From positions 25,191 through 89,190 of the IMG/VR virus record IMGVR_UViG_3300019458_000027: a stretch of 64,000 nucleotides of DNA; one strand, written 5' to 3'. The position numbers and the translations under genes were made by a program. This DNA comes from a virus. Numbering within the stretch: the first letter of the stretch is position 1; each line of letters starts with the position of its first letter. The notes beneath the pieces are model-generated. The model was not told the origin of the DNA. It made no database searches and was given only the letters and a program-made list of their open reading frames with translations. This document shows, in pieces, positions 16,947-60,928 of the stretch.

Positions 16947-17203
16947 AGTCTATGCCCTCCACGACTTTTTACCCTTGGTTTTAGCTTGCCTTTTTCCCGA
17001 ATCTTCCATTTCTTCTTGATCACAGTAGGAATGGTATCATCCATACGAGGATCATAAGTTAACAACCCGATCTTCTTTTTGCTGATAATAAGTAGAACAT
17101 TCCCACATTTTGGGCAACCGTTCAATGTAGACGTAATCGCCTTAGTGCCTTCTCTGATCTGAAAAAGCTGACCACAATTCACACATTCTGCCCAAAGATA
17201 CAT
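16943..17203 (-). CDS. Zn-ribbon protein with KWKIREKGK motif
   Basis: CVNC...CPKC; C-terminal KKKWKIREKGKL. Confidence 0.65.
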   Translation of the reverse strand: MYLWAECVNCGQLFQIREGTKAITSTLNGCPKCGNVLLIISKKKIGLLTYDPRMDDTIPTVIKKKWKIREKGKLKPRVKSRGGHRL

Positions 17204-17337
17204 TAGACCTCAGTGGTTTCTCCGAGCTTGGTTACTCGAATCCGTGGGTCGCTTTTCACCGATTTCTTGGCGTTCCCGTTATCTTTCAGAGAACGAACTT
17301 TCTTTTTAAGACTTGCGTACTTACGAAATCTCACCAT
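17203..17337 (-). CDS. 44 aa basic peptide
   Basis: Fills gap, stop coupled to next ATG; not in ORF track. Confidence 0.35.
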   Translation of the reverse strand: MVRFRKYASLKKKVRSLKDNGNAKKSVKSDPRIRVTKLGETTEV

Positions 17338-17560
17338 TTTTACATACCTCACATTGTTCTGGTTTCACTAGATTGATCATAGCGGGTTGACCCGCAAATT
17401 TCTTAAACACCAAGGCCCGAACTTCCTTGTCCTCTTCGAAGTGCTGCTTACAAATGGGAAAGTATTTGAAATTTCCTACAGATTGTTTCATGATCGTACT
17501 ACCTTTAAAATTTGGATAATGGTCCATGTTAACCCTCCCGCACCCAGGGCAATTTTCCAT
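17321..17560 (-). CDS. Small Cys-containing protein (start possibly 17527)
   Basis: CPGC, CKQH, CEVC. Confidence 0.5.
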   Translation of the reverse strand: MENCPGCGRVNMDHYPNFKGSTIMKQSVGNFKYFPICKQHFEEDKEVRALVFKKFAGQPAMINLVKPEQCEVCKNGEIS

Positions 17561-17757
17561 AATAGTGCGGCAAACTCTTTCACAGCTTCGAAACCAATCT
17601 TTTGATTAAGCAGTGCATCCAATCCTTCTTCAATTTCCTCTAGGTCCTTCTTGTCCTGGAGCTTGTCCTCTGCATATTGCTTCTCAAAGTTTCTGACCTC
17701 GTTTTTGAGAACGGCCATTTCTTTCTCTACTTGGTTGCACTTTTCGCAATCGCTCAT
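17488..17757 (-). CDS. Coiled-coil plus C-terminal TM protein (XhlA/holin-like architecture)
   Basis: Charged helical N-terminus, hydrophobic ALLWKIALGAGGLTWTIIQIL end. Confidence 0.5.
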   Translation of the reverse strand: MSDCEKCNQVEKEMAVLKNEVRNFEKQYAEDKLQDKKDLEEIEEGLDALLNQKIGFEAVKEFAALLWKIALGAGGLTWTIIQILKVVRS

Positions 17758-17921
17758 TTAGCTTTCCTGTCTCCAAATCGGCTTTTAAATTCAACTATAA
17801 TTTCGTCTACAAATAAATTACAATCAAACAATCGGCAAACCCCGTACTGATTCAGTATATCGGTTACCCATTTTCTGACTTCGGAGAGGGAGAGTTCGTA
17901 TTTTTCGTCTTGATCGTCCAC
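17754..17921 (-). CDS. 55 aa hypothetical protein
   Basis: GTG start; ATGA overlap with next gene; not in ORF track. Confidence 0.4.
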   Translation of the reverse strand: MDDQDEKYELSLSEVRKWVTDILNQYGVCRLFDCNLFVDEIIVEFKSRFGDRKAK

Positions 17922-17939
17922 TTTTGTCTCATTGGAGGT

Positions 17940-18239
17940 TCAGACAAGCTTACCCTTTTCTCGAATTTTCCACTTGGTCTTGGAGGAGGTAGGAGGAGCG
18001 GGTACTTTGGTGCCATTGGGAGGTACTGTTCCCCATTTCCTAAGATATTCAATGAAGGCAAGTTCTTCGAGGTATCTCTGGAGTTCTTCTCTTGATGTGA
18101 TGAGGTACACGGTTTGCCCAGGGCCTTGGTTAGAAGAGGCTTGATTATCCGACTGAGTACGGTCAGAATTATAGCTAGTCCTTCGACGAAGCCCACCAGT
18201 GCCATTACTACTATAAAAATCGTAGCGAACAAATCGCAT
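17940..18239 (-). CDS. Hypothetical protein ending in KWKIREKGKLV
   Basis: GGAGG RBS; 99 aa. Confidence 0.6.
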   Translation of the reverse strand: MRFVRYDFYSSNGTGGLRRRTSYNSDRTQSDNQASSNQGPGQTVYLITSREELQRYLEELAFIEYLRKWGTVPPNGTKVPAPPTSSKTKWKIREKGKLV

Positions 18240-18255
18240 CCTCTCCTCCCAAACA

Positions 18256-19908
18256 TTATTTGGCTTTTGCCTTTACCGTTACATACCAATGCTGACTATT
18301 GGCAACACTGGCCCCACCTCTAAAAGGCGCATCGTGCGTTCCATAATTGACTACCTCATGATCAATTTTAGCGGATTTAAGCCCTGCAGTTACTTTATCT
18401 CTAAAGTCCTCGGCAGACTTCCCGTAACTATAGAAGAATTGCCGTCTAATTACAAGATTTCCAGATTTGTCCTTCCCCACCGAATCTGGGTGCACCCCCG
18501 CATTCTGTAGTGAAGTCTTCACGCTAGCTGGTGATAGGGTCTTTGGAGTCGGTGCTGGCCCTTCTTTTGGTTCCTTCTCGCCCCTAAAAGGCGGTTTATC
18601 GTAATGACCGGCGGTTGCCTGATCATAGGCTTCTTGAGCTTCTTGTCTTTCACTCTCGGTGTATCGATCCCTGCTCTCCCCTGCTCCTTCGCCAAATTTA
18701 CCATCGGGATCACGGGGATGCTTTGCCTCATCCCACTCTTTTTGAATTTTATCAAGCTCAAGATCGGACAATTCTTTGTTTCTACTAGCGAGACTAATAG
18801 CGTCCCGTGCTCTATCAAGAGCTTTAGTTACTTTCTCGTCCTTCACGCCCATATCATGAACATCTTCAGGCCGTGGATGAAGCTCTCTATCCGATTCTTT
18901 CTGATTCTCAGCATAGTCCTTATATACACGATCGATGACTTCTGACATTGATTGAGTATCCTGTTCGCTATACTCGGCGTCATCGTCCTGTTCGTAATCA
19001 CGAAGCTCATCGGCCAGATGCCTGCCATAACTAGATCCCAAGAAATCCTCCACCTCTTGATTGGTGAGGTCCATATACTCCAAAGAATCGGCCACAAACT
19101 CATCATGATCGGAGTTCCGATCTGTCGCCACACTAAAATAGCCCCAATCTTTCAGCGAAGCCCTTTCTGGAGTTGCCAAATCCCTCATATGCTCTCGAAG
19201 GGGCTTATCTTCTTTTCCTGCGCCCCCACCTGCTCCTTCACCGAATTTCCCACTCTCATCCCGTGGGTGTTTACTCTCATCCCACTCTCCTTTGAGAAGG
19301 GCCGACAAATCACGAAGTTGATCAATAAGTTTGGTGGTGTGCTTTCCTTTGTCCTCGCCGTGGGTCGTTCTCACGTTCTCGTTCTGGTATTCCTGCCCAT
19401 CTCTAGAACCAGCAGAACCCCCCGCACCAGGGTCATAATTGATCCCTGTTATTGGATTCGTACCAATAGCGTCGGGCTTAATACCAATGTCGGCTTTATT
19501 AAGATCATCGGCTAGTGGACCCAAAAACTTCTTTTGGTGGATAAGGGGATTTCCTCTCCAATCAAAGATCGGTCCGGATTCTCCTGTGAAGGAGTGCTCA
19601 GGATCGGTCGTTGCTCTTTCCTCTTCTTTAATAAGATCGGCATACTCGTTGACGCATTGCCCACCAACACCCTTGATCATGCCCCGATCTCCGATAAAAG
19701 CAGGATTACTAATGTCTCTACAAAGGGAAGCTAAATCATCAAAGAGTTTTCGTACCCACTTCCCCTTAGATTTCTTATATTTGGCTTTGGCAGCTGACCA
19801 AGCAATAGCGGAAGCTGTACCTTTGTCCTTCCCACTAGAAACAGCGGATCGGTAAGCTCCCTCTAAAATCCTATTAAGCCCCGAAGGGCCTCCTTCTACT
19901 TGAGGCAT
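18256..19908 (-). CDS. ChaB-domain protein with two HPR-tagged modules
   Basis: N-terminal RILEGAYRSA...ASAIAWSAAKAKYKKSKGKWVRK (ChaB pattern); EWDESKHPRD, EWDEAKHPRD. Confidence 0.7.
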   Translation of the reverse strand: MPQVEGGPSGLNRILEGAYRSAVSSGKDKGTASAIAWSAAKAKYKKSKGKWVRKLFDDLASLCRDISNPAFIGDRGMIKGVGGQCVNEYADLIKEEERATTDPEHSFTGESGPIFDWRGNPLIHQKKFLGPLADDLNKADIGIKPDAIGTNPITGINYDPGAGGSAGSRDGQEYQNENVRTTHGEDKGKHTTKLIDQLRDLSALLKGEWDESKHPRDESGKFGEGAGGGAGKEDKPLREHMRDLATPERASLKDWGYFSVATDRNSDHDEFVADSLEYMDLTNQEVEDFLGSSYGRHLADELRDYEQDDDAEYSEQDTQSMSEVIDRVYKDYAENQKESDRELHPRPEDVHDMGVKDEKVTKALDRARDAISLASRNKELSDLELDKIQKEWDEAKHPRDPDGKFGEGAGESRDRYTESERQEAQEAYDQATAGHYDKPPFRGEKEPKEGPAPTPKTLSPASVKTSLQNAGVHPDSVGKDKSGNLVIRRQFFYSYGKSAEDFRDKVTAGLKSAKIDHEVVNYGTHDAPFRGGASVANSQHWYVTVKAKAK

Positions 19909-19917: not shown

Positions 19918-22035
19918 TTAATCCAAAGCTAATTGCAGAACCCCGGCGAGGGGTTCAGTTATCGTATTCCCACGCCCTGCATTATAAAGAATAGACCGTT
20001 CATCCTCAGTTAACACCCGTTTCCAGAAACCGACCTCATCGATGCGACCATTCATAGCATTTGGGGTGGTGGGAAATGCCGGATTTATTCCTATGGCGAA
20101 CGCAGAGGCGGTAGAATTTATCGAATCGTCATGAAAAGCGGTCTCCACAGGTCCGTTATCAACCTGCATAGAAAGGAGATCGGCATCAGGATCATGCCAC
20201 GCTACTACAAAATACCATCTCCCTATCTGAATGGCTCCAGTAGAAACATAATTTAAATCAGAATCGTTGGTAGGAGCACCCCTAGTACCAAATTGGAATA
20301 AGATAGGTCCTAAGTCTGTAGCGGTTTGTAGAAAATATTCTACGGCGGAAGCCCCACCCGAACCAAACTTAGCAACCATAGTTTGCCCATTGCTGACGGA
20401 ATCGAAGTAGACCCAACAAGCGAGGGAAAATGGCACAGTCCCAGGTCTAAGTGGCGTAATATCCGCTCTACTGAGATACTCGGCGTTTGCCGCCGTAAAT
20501 TGCCCTGCTGATCCTACTTTTCCAGGGTTAAAAGTAACGGTATTATTGTCGGTTAAATCCTTCTTTCTGGTGTAGGAGTTTCCTAATCCAGAATTGTAAA
20601 GATCCTCTCTTTCTTTAGCCGTCAACAACCTCTTCCAAAAACCAACTTCATCAATTCGGCCATCCAAGGTCTGACTATCTTGGTTATTGGTACGACCCAG
20701 TTCAAATGGTGCTGTACCATCATTTGGTACAAGTCCAGCGGTTGCTGTTGACTCTATTATTCCGTTATTAATCTGTAGATTTATGGTATTAGCAACAGAA
20801 TCATGCCAAGCCACTACAAAATACCAGGTGGCATTTGCAAGAAGTACCGTCGAATTAACGGTTACAAAAGTACCGTCTGATGCAAATACACGCCATTTAA
20901 ATCTACGTTTTGTTTGATCCCCATCCAGATCGGTTTCGAAAAGATCGTATTCTCGATTGGGTGCTACGCCGGCCTTTGAAAGCATACCAGAAGTAACCGA
21001 TACATTATCGAAATAAATCCAACCGGCAAAAGTAAAATCAATGTCTCCCACAGAAAGATCGGCATTATCAGCAACCGAAAGGTATTCAATATTGGCCATA
21101 GTGAATTGCGCTGCTTTAACTTTTGTTCCTTGATTTTGAGTAACGGTATTATTGTCGGTAAGATTGCTTCCAGGAAGATAGGTGTTTCCTCTACTTGCTA
21201 AATAAAGGTCTTTACGCTCCCTCTCGGTAAGGACTCTTTTCCAAAAACCAACTTCGTCAATTCGGCCATCCCAAGGACCGGCAACTCCTAGTGAGCCGAT
21301 ATTAAAGGGGCCGGTCAAGTCGGAGATGGTTAGAGTCTTAGTTACACTATCTACCGCCCCGCCATTAACCTGAATATTAATAGTGTTTGCTGTCTCATCG
21401 TGCCAACCCACAACGAAGTACCAAACTCCAGTGGACAGAGTACCGAAAGAATCTGCTGTTACAAATTCGGAAGCATCTATTAAATCTTTTACTAGAAACT
21501 GAAATTTATTAAGACTTCCACTTACCCGAAGTTGCCATTCGTCTTTCCCACCAGTGTTATCCCCTTTGCTAGCTATGACTCTGGTGGTTCCGGTGCTATC
21601 GAGGTAAACCCATGCACAAATAGTAAAGTCAATCTCTCCAGTAGAGAGAGATGCATTGTCAGCTATCTGAAGATACTCGACGTTAGCAGCTACGAATTGC
21701 GCTGATTTTCCCCTTTTTCCATCAGCTTGTGTAACTGTGTTGTTGTCTGTAAGATGGTTAGAACCTTTTGAATCAAATCGGGTTCCGCTCGTCTCTTCTA
21801 GTTTCCAGTATGCTACCAAACTCTCTGACATTTTCTTGGTTCGGTCTACTGCAAATCGGTCTGTGGTTTCATCTTCTCTTGTTCCTGATGCTTCGTCTAA
21901 AGTCCAATAGCCAAACAACTCGTCGGTCAAGGTCCGGTTCGTATCAAGCTCGAAATGCCCTCCCCACCTATCTCTACGAATCCCACTAGTTTCTTCTAGC
22001 TTGTAATAGGCTTTAAGATCGGTAACTAAGGGCAT
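19918..22035 (-). CDS. LamG/concanavalin-A-like repeat protein (3 domains), putative adhesin/fibre
   Basis: Repeats of DFT.xxWVY, WYFVVAWHD, INIQ.N.G, DGRIDEVGFWKRVLT. Confidence 0.8.
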   Translation of the reverse strand: MPLVTDLKAYYKLEETSGIRRDRWGGHFELDTNRTLTDELFGYWTLDEASGTREDETTDRFAVDRTKKMSESLVAYWKLEETSGTRFDSKGSNHLTDNNTVTQADGKRGKSAQFVAANVEYLQIADNASLSTGEIDFTICAWVYLDSTGTTRVIASKGDNTGGKDEWQLRVSGSLNKFQFLVKDLIDASEFVTADSFGTLSTGVWYFVVGWHDETANTINIQVNGGAVDSVTKTLTISDLTGPFNIGSLGVAGPWDGRIDEVGFWKRVLTERERKDLYLASRGNTYLPGSNLTDNNTVTQNQGTKVKAAQFTMANIEYLSVADNADLSVGDIDFTFAGWIYFDNVSVTSGMLSKAGVAPNREYDLFETDLDGDQTKRRFKWRVFASDGTFVTVNSTVLLANATWYFVVAWHDSVANTINLQINNGIIESTATAGLVPNDGTAPFELGRTNNQDSQTLDGRIDEVGFWKRLLTAKEREDLYNSGLGNSYTRKKDLTDNNTVTFNPGKVGSAGQFTAANAEYLSRADITPLRPGTVPFSLACWVYFDSVSNGQTMVAKFGSGGASAVEYFLQTATDLGPILFQFGTRGAPTNDSDLNYVSTGAIQIGRWYFVVAWHDPDADLLSMQVDNGPVETAFHDDSINSTASAFAIGINPAFPTTPNAMNGRIDEVGFWKRVLTEDERSILYNAGRGNTITEPLAGVLQLALD

Positions 22036-23490
22036 TTAGACCTCCACCAACTCTTTCCCAAAGGCGGGAGACTTCGATTTCAAGATTGCTCTGACTGTGT
22101 TTCCCCTTCCGGCGTTGTAAAGATCAGAACGTTCTTGGGAAGTTAAAACCCGTTTCCAGAATACAGCTTCGTCTATCCTTCCATTCCAAAAATTGGATGG
22201 CGTGGTGTCAAGATTTATAGCTCCAATTCCTAAAGATGAAGTCCCAACAAAAACCCCTAGAGTGTGAGAGGAAGAATCTATGGTTCCATTATTAATTTGA
22301 ATGTTGATAGTATTAGCTTCGGGGTCATGCCATGCCACAATAAGATGCCATGAAGCGGTTGATGGGGAACCAAAGCTATTGGCAAGTAAGGAGACGATAC
22401 CGCCTGGTGATCCATCGTTGTCCACAAAGAACCTAAACCTGTCCTCTGAGTTTCGGTAGTCAATTCCAAACTCTCGTTGGTCAGTGGAATCGTTACTTTT
22501 AGTGTATATAGCCATGTTCCCTGGCTTGCTATCTAAATATACCCACGCCGACACCGTAAAACCTATATCGCCCGTTTTGATTGCGGAATTATTGGCTCGG
22601 TTAAGGTATTCACTGTTCGCCCGTACAAATTGCCCCGCTCGACTCCTGATCCCCGTGTTTACCCCAACTGTGTTATTATCGGTCAAACTTAACGACCTGG
22701 TATAAGAATTTCCTCTCCCTGAATTATAAAGAAGGGATCGTTCCTCTGCTGTCAAGACTCTTTTCCAAATTCCTACTTCGTCAATACGCCCATCGTGGAA
22801 ACCACCATGGGTAGTTGGTTCATTTCCCATAGTAAACTCATGAGTGCTATCAAAACTCCCGCCGCTTCTACTCGTAGAATCTATCGCACCACCATTAATT
22901 TGAACATTCATTGTATCATTAACCGAATCGTGCCAAACAACAACAAAGTACCAAGTATTAATAGATAAAATAACGGTGGATGACAAAGTGGTGGAATTGA
23001 TTCCATTGGCAACTACAAACTCAACAATAGGTCTTGTACCCCCCAACCCAGTGGCGTTATTGACTCTAACGAGATATTCATTTTGTGCGGCGACGTTGGA
23101 ACTTCCCTTTGCAACGAAATTGAACGCCGTATCTCCGGAGGACGGCGGCACTGAATCCATATAGAACCAGAACGCTATCGTAAAATCTATATCACCCATA
23201 CTAATATCAGAATTGTCTGCAACACTAAGATATTCACTATTGGCCCGTGTAAATTGCGCTCCCCTAACTTTCTTACCAAGTGCTTGAGTTACTGTATTAT
23301 TGTCGGTAAGATGGTTGGTTCCCTTTTCGTCCTCCCTGGTTCCGCTTAACTCATCCAAAGTCCAATAAGCCACCAGATTATTAGGAAGGGTGTTTCTAGC
23401 GTCCCGCTCGAATTTGTTGCCCCAGGCGTCAAATCTGGTCCCGCTCGTCTCATCCAATTGCCATAACGCTTTAAGATCGGAAGTTAGCAT
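22036..23490 (-). CDS. LamG-like repeat protein (2 domains)
   Basis: Same repeat motifs; own GGAG RBS. Confidence 0.8.
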   Translation of the reverse strand: MLTSDLKALWQLDETSGTRFDAWGNKFERDARNTLPNNLVAYWTLDELSGTREDEKGTNHLTDNNTVTQALGKKVRGAQFTRANSEYLSVADNSDISMGDIDFTIAFWFYMDSVPPSSGDTAFNFVAKGSSNVAAQNEYLVRVNNATGLGGTRPIVEFVVANGINSTTLSSTVILSINTWYFVVVWHDSVNDTMNVQINGGAIDSTSRSGGSFDSTHEFTMGNEPTTHGGFHDGRIDEVGIWKRVLTAEERSLLYNSGRGNSYTRSLSLTDNNTVGVNTGIRSRAGQFVRANSEYLNRANNSAIKTGDIGFTVSAWVYLDSKPGNMAIYTKSNDSTDQREFGIDYRNSEDRFRFFVDNDGSPGGIVSLLANSFGSPSTASWHLIVAWHDPEANTINIQINNGTIDSSSHTLGVFVGTSSLGIGAINLDTTPSNFWNGRIDEAVFWKRVLTSQERSDLYNAGRGNTVRAILKSKSPAFGKELVEV

Positions 23491-26441
23491 ATTAGAAGCT
23501 CCGTATCCTTCTCGAAGATTAAAGATCGGGTTCTTGGTTTCTTGGTTATAAGTGCATTACCACGCCCCTGCAAATATAAATCACGACGCTCCTGGGCTGT
23601 CAATATCCGCTTCCAGAACCCTAACTCATCAATAAAGCCATCCCATCTGCTAGCGTTTCCTGAAGTATCGGCACCCACAGTAAGAGGTTCTGAGGTAAAG
23701 TCTGGGACACCTATAGTCGCAACTGAATCTATAGCCCCGCCATCTATCTGAATGTTTACAGTGTTGGCAACGGAATCATGCCACCCAACTACATGAAGCC
23801 ATTGTCCTATCGGTGGAGACCCGAAAGAATTAGCAGGAACGGTTCCAACTATGGTGCCACTTCCTAGGCCAAAGATGGTAAATTCAAGTCGATCCAGAGA
23901 GCTATTATACCGCATTCGATATTCTCGACTTCCAGTGGTTGGATCGGACTTAGCAACGATCGTCATAAATGTGGCCTTTGACTCGAAGTAAATCCAAGCG
24001 GAGAAGGTGAAATCTATATCCCCAACGGAAACAGAAGTATTACTGGCTAAGGACAGGTATTCACTGTTGTCAACTTCAAAGTCCGCTGCATTCTCCCTAA
24101 CCCCTGCTATTGTGGAGCCAACGGTGTTGTTATCAGTCAACTCTAGCGATCTAGAGTAAGAATTGGCGTTTCCTGAATTATATAAGTCCGAACGCTCTTT
24201 CGCTGTAAGGGTACGCTTCCAAATACCGATCTCCTCTATTCTACCGTCCCAATGCTTGTCGATAGTCCCCAGCACGTTTCTTGCTCCAATGATGAGAGAA
24301 TTGCTGGTCCGCTGGGTGCCTTTTTCATGAGACGCCGACATTATCCCGTTATTGTTGACTTGAAAAAACAATCTGCCCTTAATCCCGTCGTACCAAGCTA
24401 CTAGGAATAACCAAGTACCTGTGGTTATCGTTACTCCAGCGTTGCCTTCTAGAGTAGTAAAATCTGCGCCATTCGATATGGTAAATTGCCAAATGTAGGT
24501 TGGCGTGTTTGGAGAGTTATTAGTGAGAGATATAGCATACTCTGAAGCCACGCTTCCGGCCTGAGCTTCGCCTTTATGAATCAGTTGGTGAACGTCTCCT
24601 GGAAGGGAATCGATATAGACCCAACAGGCAATAGTAAAATCTACCCGCCCTGAAGCCAGACCAACATCATCATTATCTGGGAGGGATAAATATTCCGAGT
24701 TAGCTTTGGTAAATTGCCCAGCTTTTACTTTCTTCCCTGCAGCTTGAGTTACTGTATTGTTATCAGTAAGATGATGGCCGCCGTGATATGGGTTGCCGAG
24801 GCCATCATTATAAAGGTCTTGACGTTCTTGGGCGGTAAGGACTTTCTTCCAAATTCCGACCTCATCGATTCGGCCATTATGACGGTTTTCTTGACCAGTG
24901 CTGGTGAACACCGCACCCATCTCGAAGGGATGAGAACTATCGTAGCTTCCGCCATTCCAAGATGTGCTTGCTATCGTCCCGTTGTCAATCTGTATGTTGA
25001 TGGTATCGGCTACAGAATCGTGCCAGGCAACGATAAAATACCACTGTCCTGTAACCTGAGTCCCATCGGCGTTTACGTTCGCAAAGGAGACATTGTTCCC
25101 AACATGAAGGACGAACCTAGTTCCATTCCAGTGGATATAATACTCAAGGGTCTTGGTAACGTTCCCATCGCCTTTGCCTAAGATTGTATTCCCCCCTGTA
25201 AAGGAATCGATAAATACCCAACAAGCGATGGAAAAGTCAATATCACCCATAGACAGGGCAGCGTTGTCGGTAATTGATAGGTACTCAGTGTTGGCTGCGA
25301 CAAATTGCGCTGCTTTGCTTACCTTCCCGTCATTTCGGGTTACGGTATTATTATCAGTAAGATGGCTAGAACCCTTGGAATCTATCCTGGTTCCACTCGG
25401 CTCCCCCAATTGCCAATACGCCACTAGACTTCGGGTGAGTGTTCCATCCGTGTCTTTTTCGAAATAGCTTACTTCGTCCTGTCTTGTGCCAGAAGCCTCA
25501 TCGAGGGTGTAATAGGCCGAAAGTCCGTCTCTAAGACTTCCAACTGGAATCCTCCTACCTGGAAAGAATGTGTTACCTCTTCCCCTCTGGTAAAGCTCTC
25601 GACGTTCGGAAGACGACAGCACTTTCTTCCAAAAACCTAACTCATCAATCCTACCGTTCATGAACTCCTTTACCCCGCCACCCCCACTTTCGGTTACAGC
25701 CCCTACCAAAAATTGCGTACTGCTGGAAAAAGCCGCCCCAGTGGTGGAAACAATTACTGGACTTCCTCCATTCACACTAATGGCTATCTGATTGTTCACT
25801 GCGTCATGCCAAGCCACTACAAAATACCAGGTTGCTGTGGTAAGTGCCGTTGGCCATTGTGCGTCGGCACCAGTTCCAGTGTGACCCAGGACTATCTTGT
25901 TGTCATTAGCATTTATCTGTAAGAGATACTCCTGATTGGGGGAACCAATTTCATACTTTGTTACTACGTTGAAAGAAGAACCAGCAATGGATGGAAGGGA
26001 ATCTAGGTAAATCCAGCAAGCGATGGTGTAGTCTATGTCGCCTGTCGTAAGATCACTGTTGCTGGCCCGGCTTAAGTATTCGCTGTTGGCTTTGGTAAAT
26101 TGGGCGGCCGGTCCTATAATCCCCGAACTTTGCGTTACGGTGTTGTTATCAGTAAGATGACTTGATCCTTTAGAATCTCGACGGGTTCCTGAGGTCTCGT
26201 CCAATTTCCAATAGGCCACCAATCTGTCGGCCAATGTAAGACTGGGGTCAACGTCGAATATACCAGGATCGCTACCCCCCATAATAGCCGTCCTGCCTTG
26301 ATTACAGTCGGTGTCTTTCTCGAATACTCCTCCCCAAGCCCCAAAACGGGTTCCGTCAGTTTCTTCAAGACGGAAATACGCTTTCAGATTTGTTCTTAGG
26401 GAATCGTTGGTATCGTATTCAAAGACAGGGGACTTAGGCAT
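23484..26441 (-). CDS. LamG-like repeat protein (4 domains)
   Basis: Same repeat motifs, four LTDNNTV bodies. Confidence 0.8.
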   Translation of the reverse strand: MPKSPVFEYDTNDSLRTNLKAYFRLEETDGTRFGAWGGVFEKDTDCNQGRTAIMGGSDPGIFDVDPSLTLADRLVAYWKLDETSGTRRDSKGSSHLTDNNTVTQSSGIIGPAAQFTKANSEYLSRASNSDLTTGDIDYTIACWIYLDSLPSIAGSSFNVVTKYEIGSPNQEYLLQINANDNKIVLGHTGTGADAQWPTALTTATWYFVVAWHDAVNNQIAISVNGGSPVIVSTTGAAFSSSTQFLVGAVTESGGGGVKEFMNGRIDELGFWKKVLSSSERRELYQRGRGNTFFPGRRIPVGSLRDGLSAYYTLDEASGTRQDEVSYFEKDTDGTLTRSLVAYWQLGEPSGTRIDSKGSSHLTDNNTVTRNDGKVSKAAQFVAANTEYLSITDNAALSMGDIDFSIACWVFIDSFTGGNTILGKGDGNVTKTLEYYIHWNGTRFVLHVGNNVSFANVNADGTQVTGQWYFIVAWHDSVADTINIQIDNGTIASTSWNGGSYDSSHPFEMGAVFTSTGQENRHNGRIDEVGIWKKVLTAQERQDLYNDGLGNPYHGGHHLTDNNTVTQAAGKKVKAGQFTKANSEYLSLPDNDDVGLASGRVDFTIACWVYIDSLPGDVHQLIHKGEAQAGSVASEYAISLTNNSPNTPTYIWQFTISNGADFTTLEGNAGVTITTGTWLFLVAWYDGIKGRLFFQVNNNGIMSASHEKGTQRTSNSLIIGARNVLGTIDKHWDGRIEEIGIWKRTLTAKERSDLYNSGNANSYSRSLELTDNNTVGSTIAGVRENAADFEVDNSEYLSLASNTSVSVGDIDFTFSAWIYFESKATFMTIVAKSDPTTGSREYRMRYNSSLDRLEFTIFGLGSGTIVGTVPANSFGSPPIGQWLHVVGWHDSVANTVNIQIDGGAIDSVATIGVPDFTSEPLTVGADTSGNASRWDGFIDELGFWKRILTAQERRDLYLQGRGNALITKKPRTRSLIFEKDTELLIC

Positions 26442-51520: not shown

Positions 51521-51639
51521 TCCTCCAGTTTATAACCGCAATCAGGACATTCAAAATCATCGATATCCACCGCACATGAGCATATTGGGCAATACCAAAA
51601 CTCTCCGTCGGGGTCGTACTCAATATCCATGTCAGCCAC
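51517..51639 (-). CDS. 40 aa double Zn-ribbon peptide
   Basis: YCPIC...ECPDCG; AAGGGG RBS; not in ORF track. Confidence 0.55.
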   Translation of the reverse strand: MADMDIEYDPDGEFWYCPICSCAVDIDDFECPDCGYKLED

Positions 51640-52180
51640 AGATTGTCCCCTTTTCCTTAATGACCCACTTCTTCTTTAAAATCTCTGGTTTAGTATATTC
51701 GTACAATTTTTTAACTTCCTGAGAGCTTAGCTTCTTAATGGTTCCGGTGGAAATTCCCACGGGTTCCTCTTTCAAATCCCAATATGTGGCTATACTAGAT
51801 GCCACGTAAACTGCTGTCTTTGGGGCTTTAACAATGCCGTTGTAAAATCGAGGCATCTGGCTAACCAAACTGTACGTAATAGAGTTACTAAAGTAGTTAA
51901 TAAGGGCGTTAGAATCCCGAAATATGATTCTAGGGTCCGTTAATCTAAATTCTTCGATTGGAAGCGTCTTAATCTCTAACCTTATCAAAACCCCGCTCAA
52001 TCTTTCCTCTTCTCTCATCTCAACGATAGTAACTTGGGTTGGGAATTTCATCCCTCTATAACAACCGTCAGCAATCTGGAGGCCAATGTTTTGGCACCAA
52101 TAAGACAGGACGGTAGTTATATCCTTTCCTATGAAAAGAACGTTTGATAACACCGTATCCAAAATAACTGTATCACCCAC
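51632..52180 (-). CDS. Hypothetical protein ending in KKKWVIKEKGTI
   Basis: 182 aa. Confidence 0.6.
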   Translation of the reverse strand: MGDTVILDTVLSNVLFIGKDITTVLSYWCQNIGLQIADGCYRGMKFPTQVTIVEMREEERLSGVLIRLEIKTLPIEEFRLTDPRIIFRDSNALINYFSNSITYSLVSQMPRFYNGIVKAPKTAVYVASSIATYWDLKEEPVGISTGTIKKLSSQEVKKLYEYTKPEILKKKWVIKEKGTICG

Positions 52181-53126
52181 CGATTACCTCAATTCCCTTT
52201 TCCAAGACTTTCTTCTCCAACTCGTCCCCAATTTTAAGGGTCTTCACATACTCTTCAAGGGCCTTTTGCGCTGTAACTCCCTCTTTTATGACTTCTCGAT
52301 CTTCACGTACCGTCTTTGGTCTTTCTATGTCGTAACTAACGGAAAGGGAATACGCATTGACAAGCTGACCCCTTATAGAGGCCTCGTCGAAATTTTTCAA
52401 CTCATTCCTTGTTCCACTAACGATGACTTTTACTATAGAATCTTTGTAGTCCCCGACGGGAAAGGAAGCCGTCGCTTTCATGTTTATCTGAATCATGGGT
52501 CTTAGAGGAAGCTTTATGCTGTCCAATGTGTGTACTTGTCCATCACCACCAGTTTCCGCAAAATAAACGAACTTATCCTCCCCCAACTCCCCAAAATCTG
52601 TTCTGTCAATGCTACCCGTATGAAATACCGTGGGGTTTTGGTGCATAAATTGTGGCTTATGAATATGCCCTAAGGCATAAAGAGAGCAACCAGGGTATGA
52701 AACCAAAAAGTCCCGCAGGAGCATCTGATTTGGAATATGAAAATCAAGGGGTCCCATTGAGGATTCCGCTAGGCCAAAATGCCCCATAAAAATGTCGTCC
52801 TCAATATGGGGAGAACCATATACGTGAATGCCAGGAATATTCAAAATTTTGAACTCTCCCAACGCCGATGTGCCACCCGTCAGATCGTGATTCCCCTCAA
52901 TAAACACCACATCAATCCCTCTATCAGCAATCCTCTTAGCCCAGGTTTCTAAGGCCCTCATTTCCTGTTGATAAGGGCGGCGGGATTCATAAGCGTCCCC
53001 TAACTGCAGGACTTTATCTACCTTATAATCAAAAGCAAGGTCGGCAATGTAATGCAAGAGACTGACGGTATCCTCAAATCGGCGGTGCAAATCTAGGTGT
53101 AAGTCTCCCACTAAAAGGTATCTCAT
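52173..53126 (-). CDS. sbcD: Mre11/SbcD/gp47-like nuclease
   Basis: GDLHL, LGDAYE, GNHD, MGH, LGHIH, GSIDRTDFGE. Confidence 0.9.
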   Translation of the reverse strand: MRYLLVGDLHLDLHRRFEDTVSLLHYIADLAFDYKVDKVLQLGDAYESRRPYQQEMRALETWAKRIADRGIDVVFIEGNHDLTGGTSALGEFKILNIPGIHVYGSPHIEDDIFMGHFGLAESSMGPLDFHIPNQMLLRDFLVSYPGCSLYALGHIHKPQFMHQNPTVFHTGSIDRTDFGELGEDKFVYFAETGGDGQVHTLDSIKLPLRPMIQINMKATASFPVGDYKDSIVKVIVSGTRNELKNFDEASIRGQLVNAYSLSVSYDIERPKTVREDREVIKEGVTAQKALEEYVKTLKIGDELEKKVLEKGIEVIGG

Positions 53127-53899: not shown

Positions 53900-54255
53900 T
53901 CTTTGGTTGTTGCTTTCTTGTGAATTGGAATTGTTCTACGCTCAATGTCGGCCAAGAACTCTCTCATTTCCTCCAGAATGTCTTCCAACTTCTCCAAATC
54001 CTCCTCCACCTCTTCGATTTCCTTCTCAAGCTGTCGCTTTTCAAGCTCGGAGGTAGCTTCTCTAAGCCGTTTTCGTAGCTTCTCCAATTCCTTCTTGTGA
54101 TCTTCGATTAATGAGGCCACCTTACCAGCAAAACTTTCTAGAGCTTTTTTGCCTTTTTCACGGATTTCGTCTTTCGAGAGGTCTTGCTTTTCATAATTCC
54201 GGACTTCTTCTTTCTTGATTTCCCATTCACGCCTCATCTTAACATCACACGGCAT
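53896..54255 (-). CDS. Coiled-coil hypothetical protein
   Basis: 119 aa, E/K-rich. Confidence 0.55.
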   Translation of the reverse strand: MPCDVKMRREWEIKKEEVRNYEKQDLSKDEIREKGKKALESFAGKVASLIEDHKKELEKLRKRLREATSELEKRQLEKEIEEVEEDLEKLEDILEEMREFLADIERRTIPIHKKATTKE

Positions 54256-57127: not shown

Positions 57128-57569
57128 AAAGACATGGCTCGTTACGCCCAGGTTCCTTGGCCCTACGATCTTCGATAGTTAGTCCTTGTAGGTGGTCGAT
57201 CTCATGCTGAATGCATTGCGCCGTCAGTCCGTACACAGCGAAACGTCTACCGTCCCCATTCTCAAAGACAACATCAGAAGCCCGTTTAACCGTGAAGATT
57301 TGGCCGGGATAACTCAAACAACCCTCATGGTAAAACTTTAGTCCCGTCATTTCAATGATCTTAGGATTCCACAAATCTACCTTTTCTTCGCCAATCCTAA
57401 CAATAGCAATCTGCATAGGAAGTCCGATTTGAACTCCAGCAAGTCCGATTCCGGGAACCTTTGACGCCTTTAGCTCAAGCTCCAACTGAGCAAATAGACT
57501 GGGGAGATTTACCTCCTCATTCCTTTCAACTTTTCTGCTTACCCGTCCTCGAATCCCACCGTAGATCAT
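57087..57569 (-). CDS. def: Peptide deformylase with C-terminal SEC-C motif
   Basis: GIGLAGVQ, EGCLS, QHEIDH; GRNEPCLCGSTKKWKKCCG. Confidence 0.9.
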   Translation of the reverse strand: MIYGGIRGRVSRKVERNEEVNLPSLFAQLELELKASKVPGIGLAGVQIGLPMQIAIVRIGEEKVDLWNPKIIEMTGLKFYHEGCLSYPGQIFTVKRASDVVFENGDGRRFAVYGLTAQCIQHEIDHLQGLTIEDRRAKEPGRNEPCLCGSTKKWKKCCGG

Positions 57570-58321
57570 TTTTCCTCCACCATATCTCCAAAGTTGTTGA
57601 GGATTGCCATAATCAGTCGGGCCCCACCACGAAGCTGATCGGCTTCTTTTGCTTTTCCAGGAATTTCAACCGTAATGGAGAAAGTAGCACCTTTGTCAAA
57701 CATTAACTCTTCCATGGTCTTTTCTCCATCGGCACTAGAAACTACCCCATCCTTGCAAGGTTCCTCATAAACGGTGGAATTGGGTGCTATATCGAAGTAA
57801 TCTTCCGTATCCTGTAAAGCTACCCTCGCCAACGATTTCTTTTTGGGGTCTCTGCGCTCGTAGGCGTAAACATACGGCTTATCCACGTCGCTGTGGATAT
57901 CAATAAAAAGATCGAACTTAGACGGTATGTTTTTTAGAACTAAATCAATTTCGGGTAAGTCTCGTTCTCCAACTCTACGATTAATGCCTTTCCCGTCCCC
58001 CGTCTTTCTAGATATGTGCCTGAACCCAAACGGGTTTACTGCTGGAAAAACGTAGAAATTCCACTCGTCAACGTCGAACTTTTCCAACGCCTCTATCAAA
58101 GCCCTAATTCCTATACTTTCGTCTCCATGAGCACCCGCTGTTATAACGGCCGTTCTCTTAGCCCTCTTTTGATAGGACTTAAGCATCAAAAACGGATAAT
58201 CTTCATCCCCATAGCGAAGGTTTTTTAGGTACAGAACGTCAAGATCGATCTTAGAACCCTTCGCTAAGATATCATTGACAAGACGTTGGTAATCACGCTT
58301 TAGCTTCAATCCATCCTCCAT
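57566..58321 (-). CDS. M14-family Zn carboxypeptidase/desuccinylase-like protein
   Basis: AGAHGDE, NPFG, INR, IDIHSD, TVEIP. Confidence 0.8.
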   Translation of the reverse strand: MEDGLKLKRDYQRLVNDILAKGSKIDLDVLYLKNLRYGDEDYPFLMLKSYQKRAKRTAVITAGAHGDESIGIRALIEALEKFDVDEWNFYVFPAVNPFGFRHISRKTGDGKGINRRVGERDLPEIDLVLKNIPSKFDLFIDIHSDVDKPYVYAYERRDPKKKSLARVALQDTEDYFDIAPNSTVYEEPCKDGVVSSADGEKTMEELMFDKGATFSITVEIPGKAKEADQLRGGARLIMAILNNFGDMVEEK

Positions 58322-58454
58322 ATTCGACTATGGTGATCGGCCATTTTCCATAGTTAGCGAAAGAAAAGTGGCAGGAGCAAGATGTTAAGAAATATCCTCT
58401 CCATTGTGTCGTCGGTGCTGAGGGGCAACCTTCTCCACATTTCGGACATTTCAA
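58293..58454 (-). CDS. Small Zn-finger protein
   Basis: CPKCG...CSC; start uncertain. Confidence 0.4.
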   Translation of the reverse strand: MKCPKCGEGCPSAPTTQWRGYFLTSCSCHFSFANYGKWPITIVEYGGWIEAKA

Positions 58455-58606
58455 CGTCCTGGAAATTTCGGGTCCTGACAACAGCCGTCGCATCCGTGTA
58501 CGTCTCCGTGTCCAATTTCGTGGGGACAATCATATTCTACCTTGTCCCGTCTAAAATTACGGGGCCATTTCCAATGCTTAAGGTCGGCTTTTTGCCGTTT
58601 GTTCAT
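58451..58606 (-). CDS. 51 aa Cys/His-rich protein
   Basis: CPHEIGH...HGCDGCC; not in ORF track. Confidence 0.45.
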   Translation of the reverse strand: MNKRQKADLKHWKWPRNFRRDKVEYDCPHEIGHGDVHGCDGCCQDPKFPGR

Positions 58607-58877
58607 TGGTAGCTTCATCTAGGATTTCCTTGAATCGTTTATGTAGTTCCCCTTTTAACTGCCCGTAGGAGTCGTCGTCAACCCTACTAAGTTTCAATAT
58701 ATTGGTCTCTATCAACCATAAGGTGAATGATTCGGCCTCTCGACTGGCTCTCTCATTATTCTCCTCAATCCTAGCTCTTTGGGATTCAGCACTAGCAGCT
58801 ATTGACACAACAGTGGCTACCGTGATGAAAGAGAATATAAATAATGCTAGGATAATGGTGAACGTTTTTAAGGTCAT
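58578..58877 (-). CDS. Single-TM protein
   Basis: N-terminal hydrophobic helix. Confidence 0.55.
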   Translation of the reverse strand: MTLKTFTIILALFIFSFITVATVVSIAASAESQRARIEENNERASREAESFTLWLIETNILKLSRVDDDSYGQLKGELHKRFKEILDEATNEQTAKSRP

Positions 58878-59902
58878 TTTTTCAGGTATAACTCCTTTAT
58901 TTCCTTCTCGTACTTTTTATAATTCTTCCCGTCCCGAAAAAACTCTGCCAATCCTGCCTTCCCTTGAAGTTTTTCTTCTCCGGCCTGGAAGAATGACCCT
59001 TTTTGTGTAACTAGCCCTAACATAAGAGCGTATCTGGCCATGGACTCGGCGTTATCAATCTGCCCCTGATTTTCTCCTGAGAAGTAGAAAGGAATCTCTG
59101 CCGTTCTGTATGGAGGAAAAGTCTTGTTCTTATCGGTTCTGCCCTTGAAATGCCTACCGATCTTGACCTTTTCCCCATCTTTATCGTCCTCTATCCATTC
59201 CCCCGTCCGCATTTCTACCGTAATGGAGGAAGCAAACTTAATGCCCATGCCTCCTGGGGTGGTCGTATTCGGGCCGTACATCACTCCAACTTTATATCGT
59301 AGCTGGTTTATGAGGAATACCAAGCATTGGTTGAGAGTGCCATCATCGGCCCGTACATTGATGGCTGAATGAAGCTTCCTAATTAAACGATTCATCATTA
59401 ACGCTCGGTCTCCGATCTTTTCTACCTCTGTCATTGGGGTCTCGTTGTCCATAGAGGGGAGCATAGCAGCCACGGAATCTAAGACTACCAATCCACAATC
59501 ACCGGATCGGGTAACGGCGTCAACAAAGTCGGCGGCCTCTTCTCCTGTGTTGGGTTGAACCACAGTAATCTTATCAATATCCACCCCTAGAATCTTAGAC
59601 CATTCGGGGTCGAATGCCCTTTCTTGGTCTATCCACACTACAGGCCTTCCAAGCTTCTGAACCTCAGAGGCGGCCTTCAAGGCCAGCATGGTCTTTCCGC
59701 AGCTTTCCCACCCATGAACCTCCACCACCCTGCCGAGGGGCCAACCCCCGCCGATCTCCAGGTCAAGAGCTAGGGAGCCGGTGGATACTCGTTCCAGTTT
59801 AGTCCTTTTCAGAACTTCTGGGTCAATGATCGTATGGCTACCGTACTTCTTGGCTAACTCTTTCAGGGTTTCCTGTAGCTCTCCCAACGACGTTCCTCCC
59901 AC
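58874..59902 (-). CDS. recA: RecA/UvsX recombinase
   Basis: STGSLALD, GWESCGKT, WIDQE, VVLDSVAA, INQLR, TPGG.GIKF. Confidence 0.92.
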   Translation of the reverse strand: MGGTSLGELQETLKELAKKYGSHTIIDPEVLKRTKLERVSTGSLALDLEIGGGWPLGRVVEVHGWESCGKTMLALKAASEVQKLGRPVVWIDQERAFDPEWSKILGVDIDKITVVQPNTGEEAADFVDAVTRSGDCGLVVLDSVAAMLPSMDNETPMTEVEKIGDRALMMNRLIRKLHSAINVRADDGTLNQCLVFLINQLRYKVGVMYGPNTTTPGGMGIKFASSITVEMRTGEWIEDDKDGEKVKIGRHFKGRTDKNKTFPPYRTAEIPFYFSGENQGQIDNAESMARYALMLGLVTQKGSFFQAGEEKLQGKAGLAEFFRDGKNYKKYEKEIKELYLKK

Positions 59903-60554
59903 TTGTATGATACCTTACGCCTAACTCATGGGCCCTCTTCTTCTGTAATTCCTTAGCCAGTCTCTTCTCTTCTGGAGTTTCATTGGCCCACGATGAAACG
60001 TGCATTCCAGTTGGGGCTACTGGGTGTAAATCTGCCCAACGGCAATAAATTAGTTTCGGTGCTGTCGTAGCTCTCTTATGGGGATTGGAGATGTTGCGAC
60101 TGACCTTAGTGCTTCCCGCCGTCTGGCCCAGGAAAGTCCAATTGTCGGCCTTGTACAACGCCCCCACCCTAGTAGGAGTCTCAACTACGAATGTCTCGAA
60201 TCCAATAACCGAAGTCCCATAAAATTTCTCCCACAAGAGGGTAACTACCTTCCTCCAAGTAGATAACACCATCGTTGCTAGGTTTTTCTCATGAGATTCT
60301 AACCTGAACACCGTGTTATTAACTAGGTGAGGAAGCAAGGAATCTCTATTCTGCTGGTTAATTTCGAAGAATATATCTCTCGCCTTTACTGAGTAAACCG
60401 ATGAGGCCCCCGAAATGATACCAACTATCGTCTCGTCCTTCCAGATTAAGAAATGAATCTGCCTTCCAATGGCCCCATGATTTTCTACATAATGCCTATC
60501 CCGAAACGTTTGGTATCGAGGGTCAGAAATCTTGCACACTTCCAACTCTATCAT
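59838..60554 (-). CDS. DUF4338/DruA-like (Mom-related GNAT) protein
   Basis: RHY...GRQIHFLI, NNTVFRL, ETFV...GALYKADNWTFLGQTAG. Confidence 0.65.
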   Translation of the reverse strand: MIELEVCKISDPRYQTFRDRHYVENHGAIGRQIHFLIWKDETIVGIISGASSVYSVKARDIFFEINQQNRDSLLPHLVNNTVFRLESHEKNLATMVLSTWRKVVTLLWEKFYGTSVIGFETFVVETPTRVGALYKADNWTFLGQTAGSTKVSRNISNPHKRATTAPKLIYCRWADLHPVAPTGMHVSSWANETPEEKRLAKELQKKRAHELGVRYHTSGRNVVGRATGNPERVSQEVR

Positions 60555-60928
60555 ATCCTACCCTTCTCTTTAATTTTCCACCTTTTCTTTGGTTTCTTAT
60601 TGGTCGGTTTCGGGTTCTTCTTCACCACTATTCGGTCATATGGGTCAAGGCCAACAAGTGATTTCTTAGTGAGATTCCTCTTTCCTAACTCCTGTAACAT
60701 GCTGTCATAAAGAGGAGACAATTTGGAGGCCACTCTCTCCAAACTAACATCGTTCATCCCGTCCTCAATATCGAACGGAACCATATTTCTCAATACCAGT
60801 AGATACTTAATAGAAGCTCTCTCGATATAACGGACAACGTTCCTAAGATGATCGTCCGTCATATCTTTGATCTTTACTTTGGTGCCATCGGCTGTCGTCC
60901 AGATTTGGTTTCTGCTGGTATTAGCCAT
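60551..60928 (-). CDS. Hypothetical phage protein ending in KKRWKIKEKGRI
   Basis: WTTADG..VKIKDMTDDHLRNV family pattern. Confidence 0.65.
   Translation of the reverse strand: MANTSRNQIWTTADGTKVKIKDMTDDHLRNVVRYIERASIKYLLVLRNMVPFDIEDGMNDVSLERVASKLSPLYDSMLQELGKRNLTKKSLVGLDPYDRIVVKKNPKPTNKKPKKRWKIKEKGRI

What the first reader, a model, noticed from the sequence alone, without database searches (positions are those of the whole stretch)
16984..60590. C-terminal K-W-K-I-R-E-K-G-K-L motif shared by four unrelated proteins
Seen: KKKWKIREKGKL (16943 gene), KTKWKIREKGKLV* (17940 gene), KKKWVIKEKGTI (51632 gene), KKRWKIKEKGRI* (60551 gene). The first two encode WKIREKGKL as TGG AAG ATT CGG GAA AAA GGC AAG CTA versus TGG AAA ATT CGA GAA AAG GGT AAG CTT, differing only synonymously, so selection acts on the peptide. 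All copies sit after a Pro/Lys/Thr-rich linker at or near the C-terminus, in both replication and late regions. Inference: a short docking motif for one hub (phage or host protein, nucleic acid or membrane), analogous to clamp-binding or SSB-tail motifs. I know of no description.
Basis: partly seen in the sequence, partly recalled or inferred. Interest (0 to 1): 0.7.

Follow-up and report, generated by a model that had tools for sequence, protein, structure and literature searches.

The report
Shared C-terminal tag on phage proteins
Four otherwise unrelated small proteins of an uncultured 105-kb phage end in the same short basic tryptophan-containing peptide; related phages carry their own versions on several proteins, so it looks like an address label read by one partner that is still unknown.

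Summary
The pattern [KR]-W-x-I-[KR]-E-K-G occurs four times in the 104,918-bp genome. All four lie in the coding frame, 1-14 residues from a C-terminus (expected by chance 0.00016). Copies 1 and 2 differ at six codons synonymously and at one non-synonymously.

New here:
- Copy 1 belongs to a small zinc-ribbon family that related 94-105-kb phages encode between portal and MuF. The family keeps W-[KRT]-[IV]-I-x-K-[GAD]-K.
- Relatives G003, G004 and G005 carry the peptide on one to three further homologue-less proteins.
- Each genome has its own variant. G004 has K-[SNK]-K where the others have [KR]-G-K. Tags resemble each other more within a genome than between genomes (permutation p about 1e-4).
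- Codons differ between copies, so selection acts on the peptide, not gene conversion.
- Tags and the zinc-ribbon family occur in the same genomes.
- The tail is predicted disordered.

Best reading (0.5): a portable short linear motif docking several proteins on one partner. The partner is unidentified and no binding was tested. Carriers cluster in DNA-end, recombination and packaging modules.

Rivals: nucleic-acid-binding tail, capsid cargo signal, degron. An RNA or DNA-level role is unlikely.

This scan has reported co-varying C-terminal tags in other phages before; this tag is a different sequence.

The parts
16943..17203 (-). Carrier 1: 86-aa zinc-ribbon protein (two CxxC pairs) with a disordered basic tail. 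It is a member of the family that relatives encode between portal and MuF.
   Evidence: weak Zn_ribbon hits; tblastn to L006 ORF, E 1.7e-6; alignment A2; AF2: residues 1-43 mostly pLDDT 75-80, residues 44-86 mostly below 50.
16982..17017 (-). Tag copy 1 (K-K-K-W-K-I-R-E-K-G-K-L), followed by 12 more residues.
17940..18239 (-). Carrier 2: 99-aa protein with no family match. The N-terminal half is low-complexity. It is a probable weak orthologue of a 107-aa tagged protein of relative G005.
   Evidence: coding-frame test; BLASTP E 1e-4 over 38 residues, reaching upstream of the tag.
17946..17981 (-). Tag copy 2 (K-T-K-W-K-I-R-E-K-G-K-L), then V and stop.
51632..52180 (-). Carrier 3: 182-aa protein with no family match. 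It overlaps the stop of the SbcD-like gene by 8 nt. Relatives G005 and G004 hold a tagged orphan protein in the same slot.
51641..51676 (-). Tag copy 3 (K-K-K-W-V-I-K-E-K-G-T-I), then C-G and stop.
60551..60928 (-). Carrier 4: 125-aa protein between the RuvC-like resolvase and a Mom-like gene. The N-terminal part (about 95 aa) resembles common small phage proteins of 93-113 aa. Linker and tag appear to be appended.
   Evidence: (phrog_16964 E 3e-5 over residues 4-62).
60554..60589 (-). Tag copy 4 (K-K-R-W-K-I-K-E-K-G-R-I), directly followed by the stop.
18259..18288 (-). Candidate degenerate fifth copy (W-Y-V-T-V-K-A-K-A-K, then stop) ending the 550-aa ChaB-domain protein 18256-19908. Unproven.
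   Evidence: It matches only the loose pattern W-x-[IV]-x-x-[KR]-x-[KR].
52173..53126 (-). Context: SbcD-like nuclease subunit. Tagged orphan genes sit directly downstream of it in three genomes.
12802..14604 (-). Context: portal protein. In relatives the tagged zinc-ribbon gene lies directly downstream of it.
9802..11679 (-). Context: MuF-like head protein with a SAM-lyase end. In relatives its start codon lies 4-13 nt after the K-G-K codons of the zinc-ribbon gene's tag, and the two genes overlap out of frame.

Best explanation
The peptide is a portable short linear motif, an address tag. Its consensus across the clade is a basic run, then W-x-[IV]-x-x-[KR]-[G or small/polar]-[KRT]-[aliphatic]. 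It sits at or near the C-terminus, at the end of a disordered Pro/Lys/Thr-rich linker. Its universal carrier is a small zinc-ribbon protein of the head-morphogenesis module, encoded between portal and MuF in relatives. In each genome one to three or four further unrelated, fast-evolving small proteins carry that genome's own version. The inferred mechanism is that the tag binds one common partner, probably as an extended strand. Alternating positions would put W, I and the last aliphatic residue on one face and the lysines on the other. The partner is probably phage-encoded. All carriers would then be brought to the same place. Carrier genes lie beside SbcD, RuvC/UvsX, terminase and portal/MuF, so that place is most likely the machinery that processes and packages phage DNA. 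Shown: the motif exists, it is selected at peptide level, it is portable, it has lineage-specific variants, and it co-occurs with the zinc-ribbon family. Inferred: docking, the strand geometry and the identity of the partner.
For: 1. Four in-frame C-terminal copies against 0.00016 expected.
2. Amino acids are conserved while synonymous sites are nearly saturated. Copies 1 and 2 show six synonymous and one non-synonymous codon difference in 12 codons. G004's 75-aa and 124-aa proteins share 7 of 9 residues but only one identical codon.
3. The zinc-ribbon family keeps W and I as invariant as its zinc ligands (alignment A2). About 13 representatives at 50% clustering all keep the motif.
4. Relatives carry extra copies on homologue-less proteins: G004 three, G005 two or three, G003 one. 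Main-strand ORFs gave 16 hits to the loose C-terminal pattern, antisense-ORF controls gave 2.
5. Mean tag identity is 5.6/9 within genomes and 4.2/9 between genomes (label permutation p about 1e-4). The after-SbcD proteins share only 3/9 between genomes but 5-7/9 with the other tags of their own genome.
6. Tags and the zinc-ribbon family are present in G000 and G003-G005 and absent from G006-G010, with positive controls.
7. AF2 with the family alignment folds the zinc ribbon (mostly pLDDT 75-80) and leaves the tail, motif included, mostly below 50.
8. Tagged orphan genes recur in two slots flanking the 258-aa/SbcD gene pair.
Against: Only four complete tag-bearing genomes could be compared. 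Within-genome likeness could therefore partly reflect each lineage spreading its own tag recently rather than co-evolution with a reader. The after-SbcD proteins are only positional counterparts, with no detectable sequence similarity, so their common descent is unproven. The tag is very basic, so plain nucleic-acid binding could explain its presence on DNA-handling proteins without any protein hub. Several extra copies in relatives match only a loose pattern (G003 68-aa protein, G005 81-aa protein, the 550-aa protein here).
Confidence: 0.5

Rival explanations
1. The tail binds nucleic acid directly, with no protein hub. A basic tail with one stacking tryptophan would hold DNA-handling proteins on phage DNA or DNA ends, much as AT-hooks or Lys-Trp-Lys-type peptides do.
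For: The tails carry a strong net positive charge, and copies in this genome have a K-W-K core. Carriers lie in DNA-transaction modules: after SbcD, beside RuvC/UvsX, near terminase, and between portal and MuF. The universal carrier is a zinc ribbon, a common nucleic-acid-binding fold. Recalled knowledge, not tested here: Lys-Trp-Lys peptides stack on single-stranded and abasic DNA.
Against: Residues flanking W are not basic in many relatives. They include A-W-S, A-W-C, K-W-D and P-W-E, which speaks against a K-W-K stacking unit. The invariance of W and I, together with genome-specific changes at other positions, is more typical of a protein interface than of unspecific DNA binding.
Confidence: 0.2
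2. The tag is a capsid or portal loading signal. It would dock small proteins on an internal head component (portal, MuF, scaffold or the zinc-ribbon protein itself), so that they are packed and delivered with the DNA. This would be analogous to encapsulin cargo-loading peptides.
For: It is a C-terminal short peptide after a flexible linker on unrelated proteins. The universal carrier gene lies between portal and MuF and overlaps the MuF start. The clade has MuF proteins with effector ends, such as the SAM-lyase domain found. Carriers are orphan, fast-evolving proteins of the kind expected for host-takeover factors.
Against: The major capsid protein is 63-82% identical across the clade, including in genomes without any tag, so it is an unlikely lineage-specific reader. 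Most carrier genes lie in early or recombination regions, not in the head module. No virion proteome exists. In this genome the zinc-ribbon gene is no longer next to portal and MuF.
Confidence: 0.13
3. The tag is a degradation or processing signal. It would be read by an unfoldase or protease (for example host ClpX, whose zinc-binding N-domain binds short basic-hydrophobic peptides) or trimmed by a phage peptidase, and so would time the lifetime of a set of proteins.
For: The peptide is short, basic-hydrophobic, terminal or near-terminal, and follows a flexible linker. An M14-type carboxypeptidase-like gene (57566-58321) and a secreted trypsin-like protease gene (42517-43311) were detected only in the tag-bearing genomes.
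Against: In the zinc-ribbon family the motif lies 2-25 residues from the end, so it is not a strict C-terminal degron. The trypsin-like protein has a signal-peptide-like start. The phylogenetic profile is weak, because G007-G009 are simply more divergent. No match to known degron consensus sequences was tested or found.
Confidence: 0.08
4. The conserved unit acts at DNA or RNA level and the peptide is a by-product. The unit could be a ribosome-binding or coupling element for the downstream gene, a recombination junction or a regulatory site.
For: The K-G codons (AAR-GGN) are purine-rich. In relatives they lie 4-13 nt before the MuF start codon (10 nt in five of seven loci). Downstream of copy 4 a start codon follows within 5 nt; downstream of copy 3 a candidate GTG follows 7 nt on and an ATG 16 nt on.
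Against: Variation between copies is concentrated at third codon positions while the amino acids stay. The gene after copy 1 starts about 40 nt further on, behind its own GGAGGG. This phage uses canonical GGAG/GAGG sites 5-10 nt before starts. There is no Rfam match and no RNA structure beyond shuffled controls. The W and I codons have no role in a ribosome-binding site.
Confidence: 0.03

Closest known systems
C-terminal docking peptides of phage replisome proteins (T4 gp45-clamp-binding ends of gp43, gp33 and gp55; T7 acidic tails of gp2.5 and gp4 docking on gp5). Recalled knowledge; reviews PMC3012046 and PMC8472574 were listed but not read.
   Same: Several different proteins of one phage end in the same short peptide, which docks them on one hub. 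The carriers are DNA-handling proteins.
   Different: Those peptides are acidic and/or hydrophobic and end in aromatic residues. This tag is strongly basic with an internal W and I. The hub here is unknown, and the carriers include a head-module zinc-ribbon protein and orphan proteins.
SspB XB peptide (and similar short peptides) docking on the zinc-binding N-domain of ClpX.
   Same: A short basic-hydrophobic peptide at the end of a long flexible linker binds a small zinc-binding domain. Here the only universal tag carrier is itself a small zinc-binding protein, and it occurs in the same genomes as the tags.
   Different: There is no sequence match. No ClpX-like gene was looked for or found in this phage. 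The AF2 model shows no docking of the tail on the zinc ribbon.
Encapsulin cargo-loading peptides and the T4 capsid targeting sequence
   Same: Short portable peptides joined by flexible linkers address unrelated proteins to the inside of an HK97-fold shell. The universal carrier here is encoded in the head module.
   Different: The T4 signal is N-terminal and is cleaved off. Encapsulin peptides have a different consensus (hydrophobic-G-S-L type). Here the capsid protein does not vary with the tag, and packaging is untested.
AT-hook
   Same: A very short motif with an invariant core, flanked by K/R, occurs on unrelated proteins.
   Different: The AT-hook core is R-G-R-P and binds the DNA minor groove. 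That core is absent here, and DNA binding is untested.
Shared co-varying C-terminal tags reported earlier by this scan in other phages (e1-173140, e1-831089, e1-5772389 and others)
   Different: The sequence and the phage clade are different. There are far fewer carriers per genome (2-5). Here one carrier, the zinc-ribbon protein, is conserved throughout the tag-bearing clade.

Membership tests
Bacterial/phage sliding-clamp-binding motif (Q-L-[SD]-L-F type; T4 type hydrophobic-acidic end) | Peptide matches the clamp-binding consensus | tested here: not met
   The tag sequences contain no Q-L-x-L-F-like pattern and are basic.
Bacterial/phage sliding-clamp-binding motif | A clamp is encoded by the phage or host and binds the peptide | not tested
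   Only a weak clamp-loader-like AAA ATPase hit was seen. That gene was not detected in the tag-bearing genome G004.
SSB C-terminal tail (acidic run ending in I-P-F or F) | Acidic tail with a terminal aromatic residue | tested here: not met
   The tails are strongly basic and end in L, I, V or short extensions.
Encapsulin cargo-loading peptide | C-terminal peptide after a flexible linker on unrelated cargo proteins | tested here: met
Encapsulin cargo-loading peptide | Consensus of the hydrophobic-x-hydrophobic-G-S-L-[KR] type, and binding to the shell protein | tested here: not met
   The sequence differs. The capsid protein is 63-82% identical in genomes with and without tags. Binding itself is not testable with these tools.
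AT-hook | R-G-R-P core | tested here: not met
   The core is absent from all copies.
Zinc-ribbon small proteins (carrier 1 only) | Two CxxC knuckles forming a small beta-rich zinc-binding fold | tested here: met
   The second CxxC pair is invariant in all 8 sequences; the first is kept in 7 (L009's ORF as called starts after it). The AF2 model gives strands at mostly pLDDT 75-80. Pfam zinc-ribbon hits are all below the curated cut-offs.
Short linear motif in a disordered region (general class) | Under about 12 residues with a few invariant positions, set in a disordered region, and gained independently by unrelated proteins | tested here: met
Short linear motif in a disordered region (general class) | A defined binding partner | not testable with these tools
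   Only monomer prediction of unaltered natural sequences was available.

The most novel reading that the evidence does not exclude
The tag is a virion-loading handle. The small zinc-ribbon protein sits at the portal/MuF complex and reads the same strand-like peptide that it carries itself. A lineage-specific set of small effector proteins would then be tethered there, packed into the head and delivered into the host with the DNA. This would be a phage counterpart of encapsulin cargo loading, with a zinc-ribbon adaptor.
Probability: 0.12. Interest if true: 0.8.

Novelty: new variant of a known kind. Interest (0 to 1): 0.55.

Why it matters
If one partner reads this tag, it defines a small wiring system inside a poorly known clade of environmental phages of about 100 kb. 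These phages also carry PurZ-type and Mom-type DNA-modification genes and effector-tipped MuF proteins. The tag would give a handle for assigning function to orphan proteins, since everything bearing it goes to the same place. It would also offer a natural short peptide for directing foreign proteins to that place. Together with the other co-varying C-terminal tags found by this scan, it suggests that genome-specific address peptides are a common, little-described way for phages to organise accessory proteins.

Tried and rejected
- Exact-motif scans of IMG/VR and of the metagenome collection returned only chance hits. These included an internal site in an antiterminator-Q-like protein, HU/IHF-like proteins whose arm base happens to read the same eight residues, and a repeated non-coding element on ten contigs of one sample series.
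- Single-protein locus searches with carrier 4, the 550-aa protein and the protease found no relatives. A word-based homologue search with carrier 4 found only itself.
- Relatives were reached only through a portal alignment.
- Carriers 2, 3 and 4 have no detectable homologues in ten related records.
- Pfam and PHROGs gave nothing useful for any non-zinc-ribbon carrier, here or in relatives.
- The ESM Atlas gave no usable lead.
- AF2 of carrier 3 without an alignment was uninformative (pLDDT 32).
- Ideas considered and dropped: a programmed frameshift fusing the zinc-ribbon protein to MuF (MuF conservation begins exactly at its own Met); an amphipathic membrane-targeting helix (this genome's variant has R/K-E on the would-be hydrophobic face); the capsid protein as reader (too conserved); the AAA ATPase as reader (not detected in G004).
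The other long contigs of the clade, known from portal homologues P0010, P0023, P0025, P0031, P0045, P0070, P0079, P0100 and P0101, could therefore not be examined.


Full report
**What is there.** The window is bases 25191-89190 of a 104,918-bp IMG/VR virus record that CheckV rates complete. Nearly all its genes are on the minus strand.

A six-frame scan finds [KR]-W-x-I-[KR]-E-K-G four times in the whole genome. All four lie in the window, in the frames of ORFs 16943-17203, 17940-18239, 51632-52180 and 60551-60928, and 14, 3, 4 and 2 residues before the stop. Proteome composition predicts 0.00016 matches, and 2,000 shuffles gave none.

A blind comparison of the last 20 residues of all ORFs puts the tag pairs first. 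They score 42, 41, 37 and 35, against 34 for the best antisense-ORF control. Codon-usage scoring supports all four frames. For the second gene it favours the 99-aa frame over an overlapping 141-aa ORF. Outside linker and tag the four proteins show no similarity. They have no significant Pfam or PHROG family apart from weak zinc-ribbon hits for the first and weak unknown-function PHROG hits for the fourth.

**Selection is on the peptide.** Over 12 codons, copies 1 and 2 differ at six codons synonymously and at one non-synonymously. The coding regions have no Rfam match and fold no better than shuffles. The phage uses canonical GGAG/GAGG ribosome-binding sites, and the gene after copy 1 has its own GGAGGG about 40 nt past the tag. 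A DNA- or RNA-level role is therefore unlikely.

**Relatives.** Single-protein searches found nothing. Portal homologues at about 50% identity define a clade of 93-105-kb phages. An alignment-based scan of IMG/VR returned 37 loci.

In a sub-clade, a small zinc-ribbon gene lies directly between portal and the MuF-like gene. Near its C-terminus it carries W-K-I-[IV]-[NY]-K-G-K-[LIYT]; the L007/G004 member has the degenerate W-N-I-V-Y-K-K-K. tblastn links carrier 1 of this window to that family (E 1.7e-6). In the alignment W and I are as invariant as the second CxxC pair. A full HMMER search of 1.84 billion representatives found about 13 family members. All keep W-[KRT]-[IV]-I-x-K-[GAD]-K, and some read K-K-W-K-I-I-E-K-G-K, almost as here.

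In relatives the MuF start codon lies 4-13 nt (10 nt in five of seven loci) after the K-G-K codons. The rest of the zinc-ribbon tail is therefore read out of frame over the conserved MuF N-terminus. That explains the variable extension after the motif. AF2 with the family alignment folds residues 1-43 (pLDDT mostly 75-80) and leaves residues 44-86, the motif included, mostly below 50.

**The tag is portable in relatives too.** I fetched the full records of the relatives. I then scanned the last 25 residues of all ORFs for the loose pattern W-x-[IV]-x-x-[KR]-x-[KR]. Main-strand ORFs gave 16 hits and antisense-ORF controls gave 2.

| Genome | Carriers besides the zinc-ribbon protein |
|---|---|
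| G004 | proteins of 75, 124 and 139 aa |
| G005 | proteins of 197 and 107 aa, and a weaker 81-aa candidate |
| G003 | a 68-aa protein |
| G000 (this genome) | the three other carriers, and a possible degenerate fifth copy ending the 550-aa ChaB-domain protein |

None of these carriers has a homologue in the other genomes at BLAST 1e-5, nor any Pfam or PHROG match. G006-G010 have neither tags nor the zinc-ribbon family; the same profile search found the family in G000 and G003-G005 as positive controls.

**Genome-specific variants.**

| Genome | Variant |
|---|---|
| G000 | all four copies read W-x-I-[RK]-E-K-G |
| G004 | all four lack the glycine (K-K-K, K-S-K, K-S-K, K-N-K), and three share I-[IV]-R-K |
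| G003 | both copies end G-K-I |

Mean identity over nine positions is 5.6 within genomes and 4.2 between genomes. Label permutation gives p about 1e-4. The proteins in the slot directly after SbcD (G000, G005, G004) share only 3/9 with one another but 5-7/9 with the other tags of their own genome. G004's 75-aa and 124-aa proteins share 7/9 residues but only one identical codon. The likeness is therefore kept at the peptide level, not by gene conversion.

Two caveats apply. Only four complete tag-bearing genomes were available. The after-SbcD proteins are positional counterparts without detectable sequence similarity.

**Where carriers sit.**
- Tagged orphan genes recur directly after the SbcD-like gene in three genomes.
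- They recur between the orthologues of window genes 53896-54255 and 53123-53899 in two genomes.
- Carrier 4 lies between a RuvC-like resolvase and a Mom-like gene, two genes from a UvsX-like recombinase.
- The probable orthologue of carrier 2 in G005 and a G004 carrier lie 1-1.5 kb downstream of the large terminase gene.
- The zinc-ribbon gene lies between portal and MuF.

All these neighbourhoods deal with DNA ends, branches or packaging.

**Interpretation.** The data fit a short linear motif read by one partner. Alternating positions would put W, I and the final aliphatic residue on one face of an extended strand and the lysines on the other. This geometry is inference. The partner is unknown.
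- The capsid protein is too conserved to be a lineage-specific reader.
- The AAA ATPase was not detected in G004.
- Genes found only in tag-bearing genomes include the 258-aa and 119-aa proteins next to SbcD, an M14-like peptidase and a secreted trypsin-like protease. This profile is weak, because the tag-less genomes are simply more divergent.
- The zinc ribbon itself is a candidate reader, by analogy with the ClpX N-domain. That analogy is recalled knowledge and was not tested.

A direct nucleic-acid-binding tail is the main rival. The non-basic residues flanking W in relatives speak against it.

**Novelty.** I found no description of this motif or of the zinc-ribbon family. Pfam and PHROGs gave nothing above threshold. 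The principle of shared terminal docking peptides is known from T4 and T7. This scan has already reported co-varying C-terminal tags in other phages, and later checks there priced the docking reading at 6-33%. I therefore class this as a new variant of a known kind, with a solid observation and an unproven mechanism.

Noticed in passing
window 19918-26441 (three genes: 19918-22035, 22036-23490, 23484-26441): Three tandem large proteins with ConA-like/Laminin_G_3 repeats (Pfam E 4e-54 for the first). Their N-termini are similar, and they share a near-C-terminal N-A-G-R-G-N / Q-G-R-G-N motif. Homologues were detected only in the tag-bearing genomes G003-G005.
   Followed up: partly
window 17864-17933, minus strand: Just after the stop of carrier 2, a 22-codon mini-ORF begins M-R-Q-K-W-T-I-K-T-K-N-T. 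It is tag-like, but it overlaps the start of the next gene in another frame. It may be chance.
   Followed up: no
window 18256-19908: This 550-aa protein has a ChaB domain (Pfam E 4e-6) and two copies of an E-W-D-E-x-K-H-P-R-D...G-K-F-G-E-G motif, which also occurs in the 380-aa protein 11679-12821. It ends in a loose tag-like W-Y-V-T-V-K-A-K-A-K.
   Followed up: partly
L006 4760-5092, L011 11745-12089, L021 1417-1722, L024 1270-1575, L012 4565-4996: In relatives the zinc-ribbon gene overlaps the MuF gene out of frame by about 45-90 nt. Its last 15-25 residues (recurrent A-P-R/K-S/P-R-R) are an overprint of the conserved MuF N-terminus.
   Followed up: yes
window 57566-58321 and 42517-43311: An M14 zinc-carboxypeptidase-like protein (H-G-D-E motif) and a trypsin-like serine protease with a signal-peptide-like start. 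Both were detected only in the tag-bearing genomes.
   Followed up: partly
L166, L176, L183 (metagenome contigs): HU/IHF-like proteins in which the strand leading into the DNA-binding arm reads G-F-G-K-W-K-I-R-E-K-G-A-R-R-G-R-N-P. This is a chance identity to the tag. It shows that the eight residues can form a DNA-facing beta-strand.
   Followed up: no
L134, L137, L141, L157, L162, L170, L171, L182, L184, L190 (contigs of the Ga0224510/Ga0224511 samples): A repeated element of roughly 150 nt, apparently non-coding, occurs on ten contigs and happens to contain the searched DNA pattern. It is unrelated to this phage.
   Followed up: partly
G009 95084-95221; G008 17191-17358; G010 42726-43067: In the tag-less distant relatives, a 45-aa very basic ORF two genes after SbcD contains W-K-I-N-P-R-T-R. 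Small membrane proteins end in N-W-K-I-P-K-K-K. Their relation to the tag is unknown.
   Followed up: no
window 51517-51639: A 40-aa zinc-ribbon-like ORF (C-P-I-C ... C-P-D-C) starts right after carrier 3. Its coding potential is positive.
   Followed up: partly
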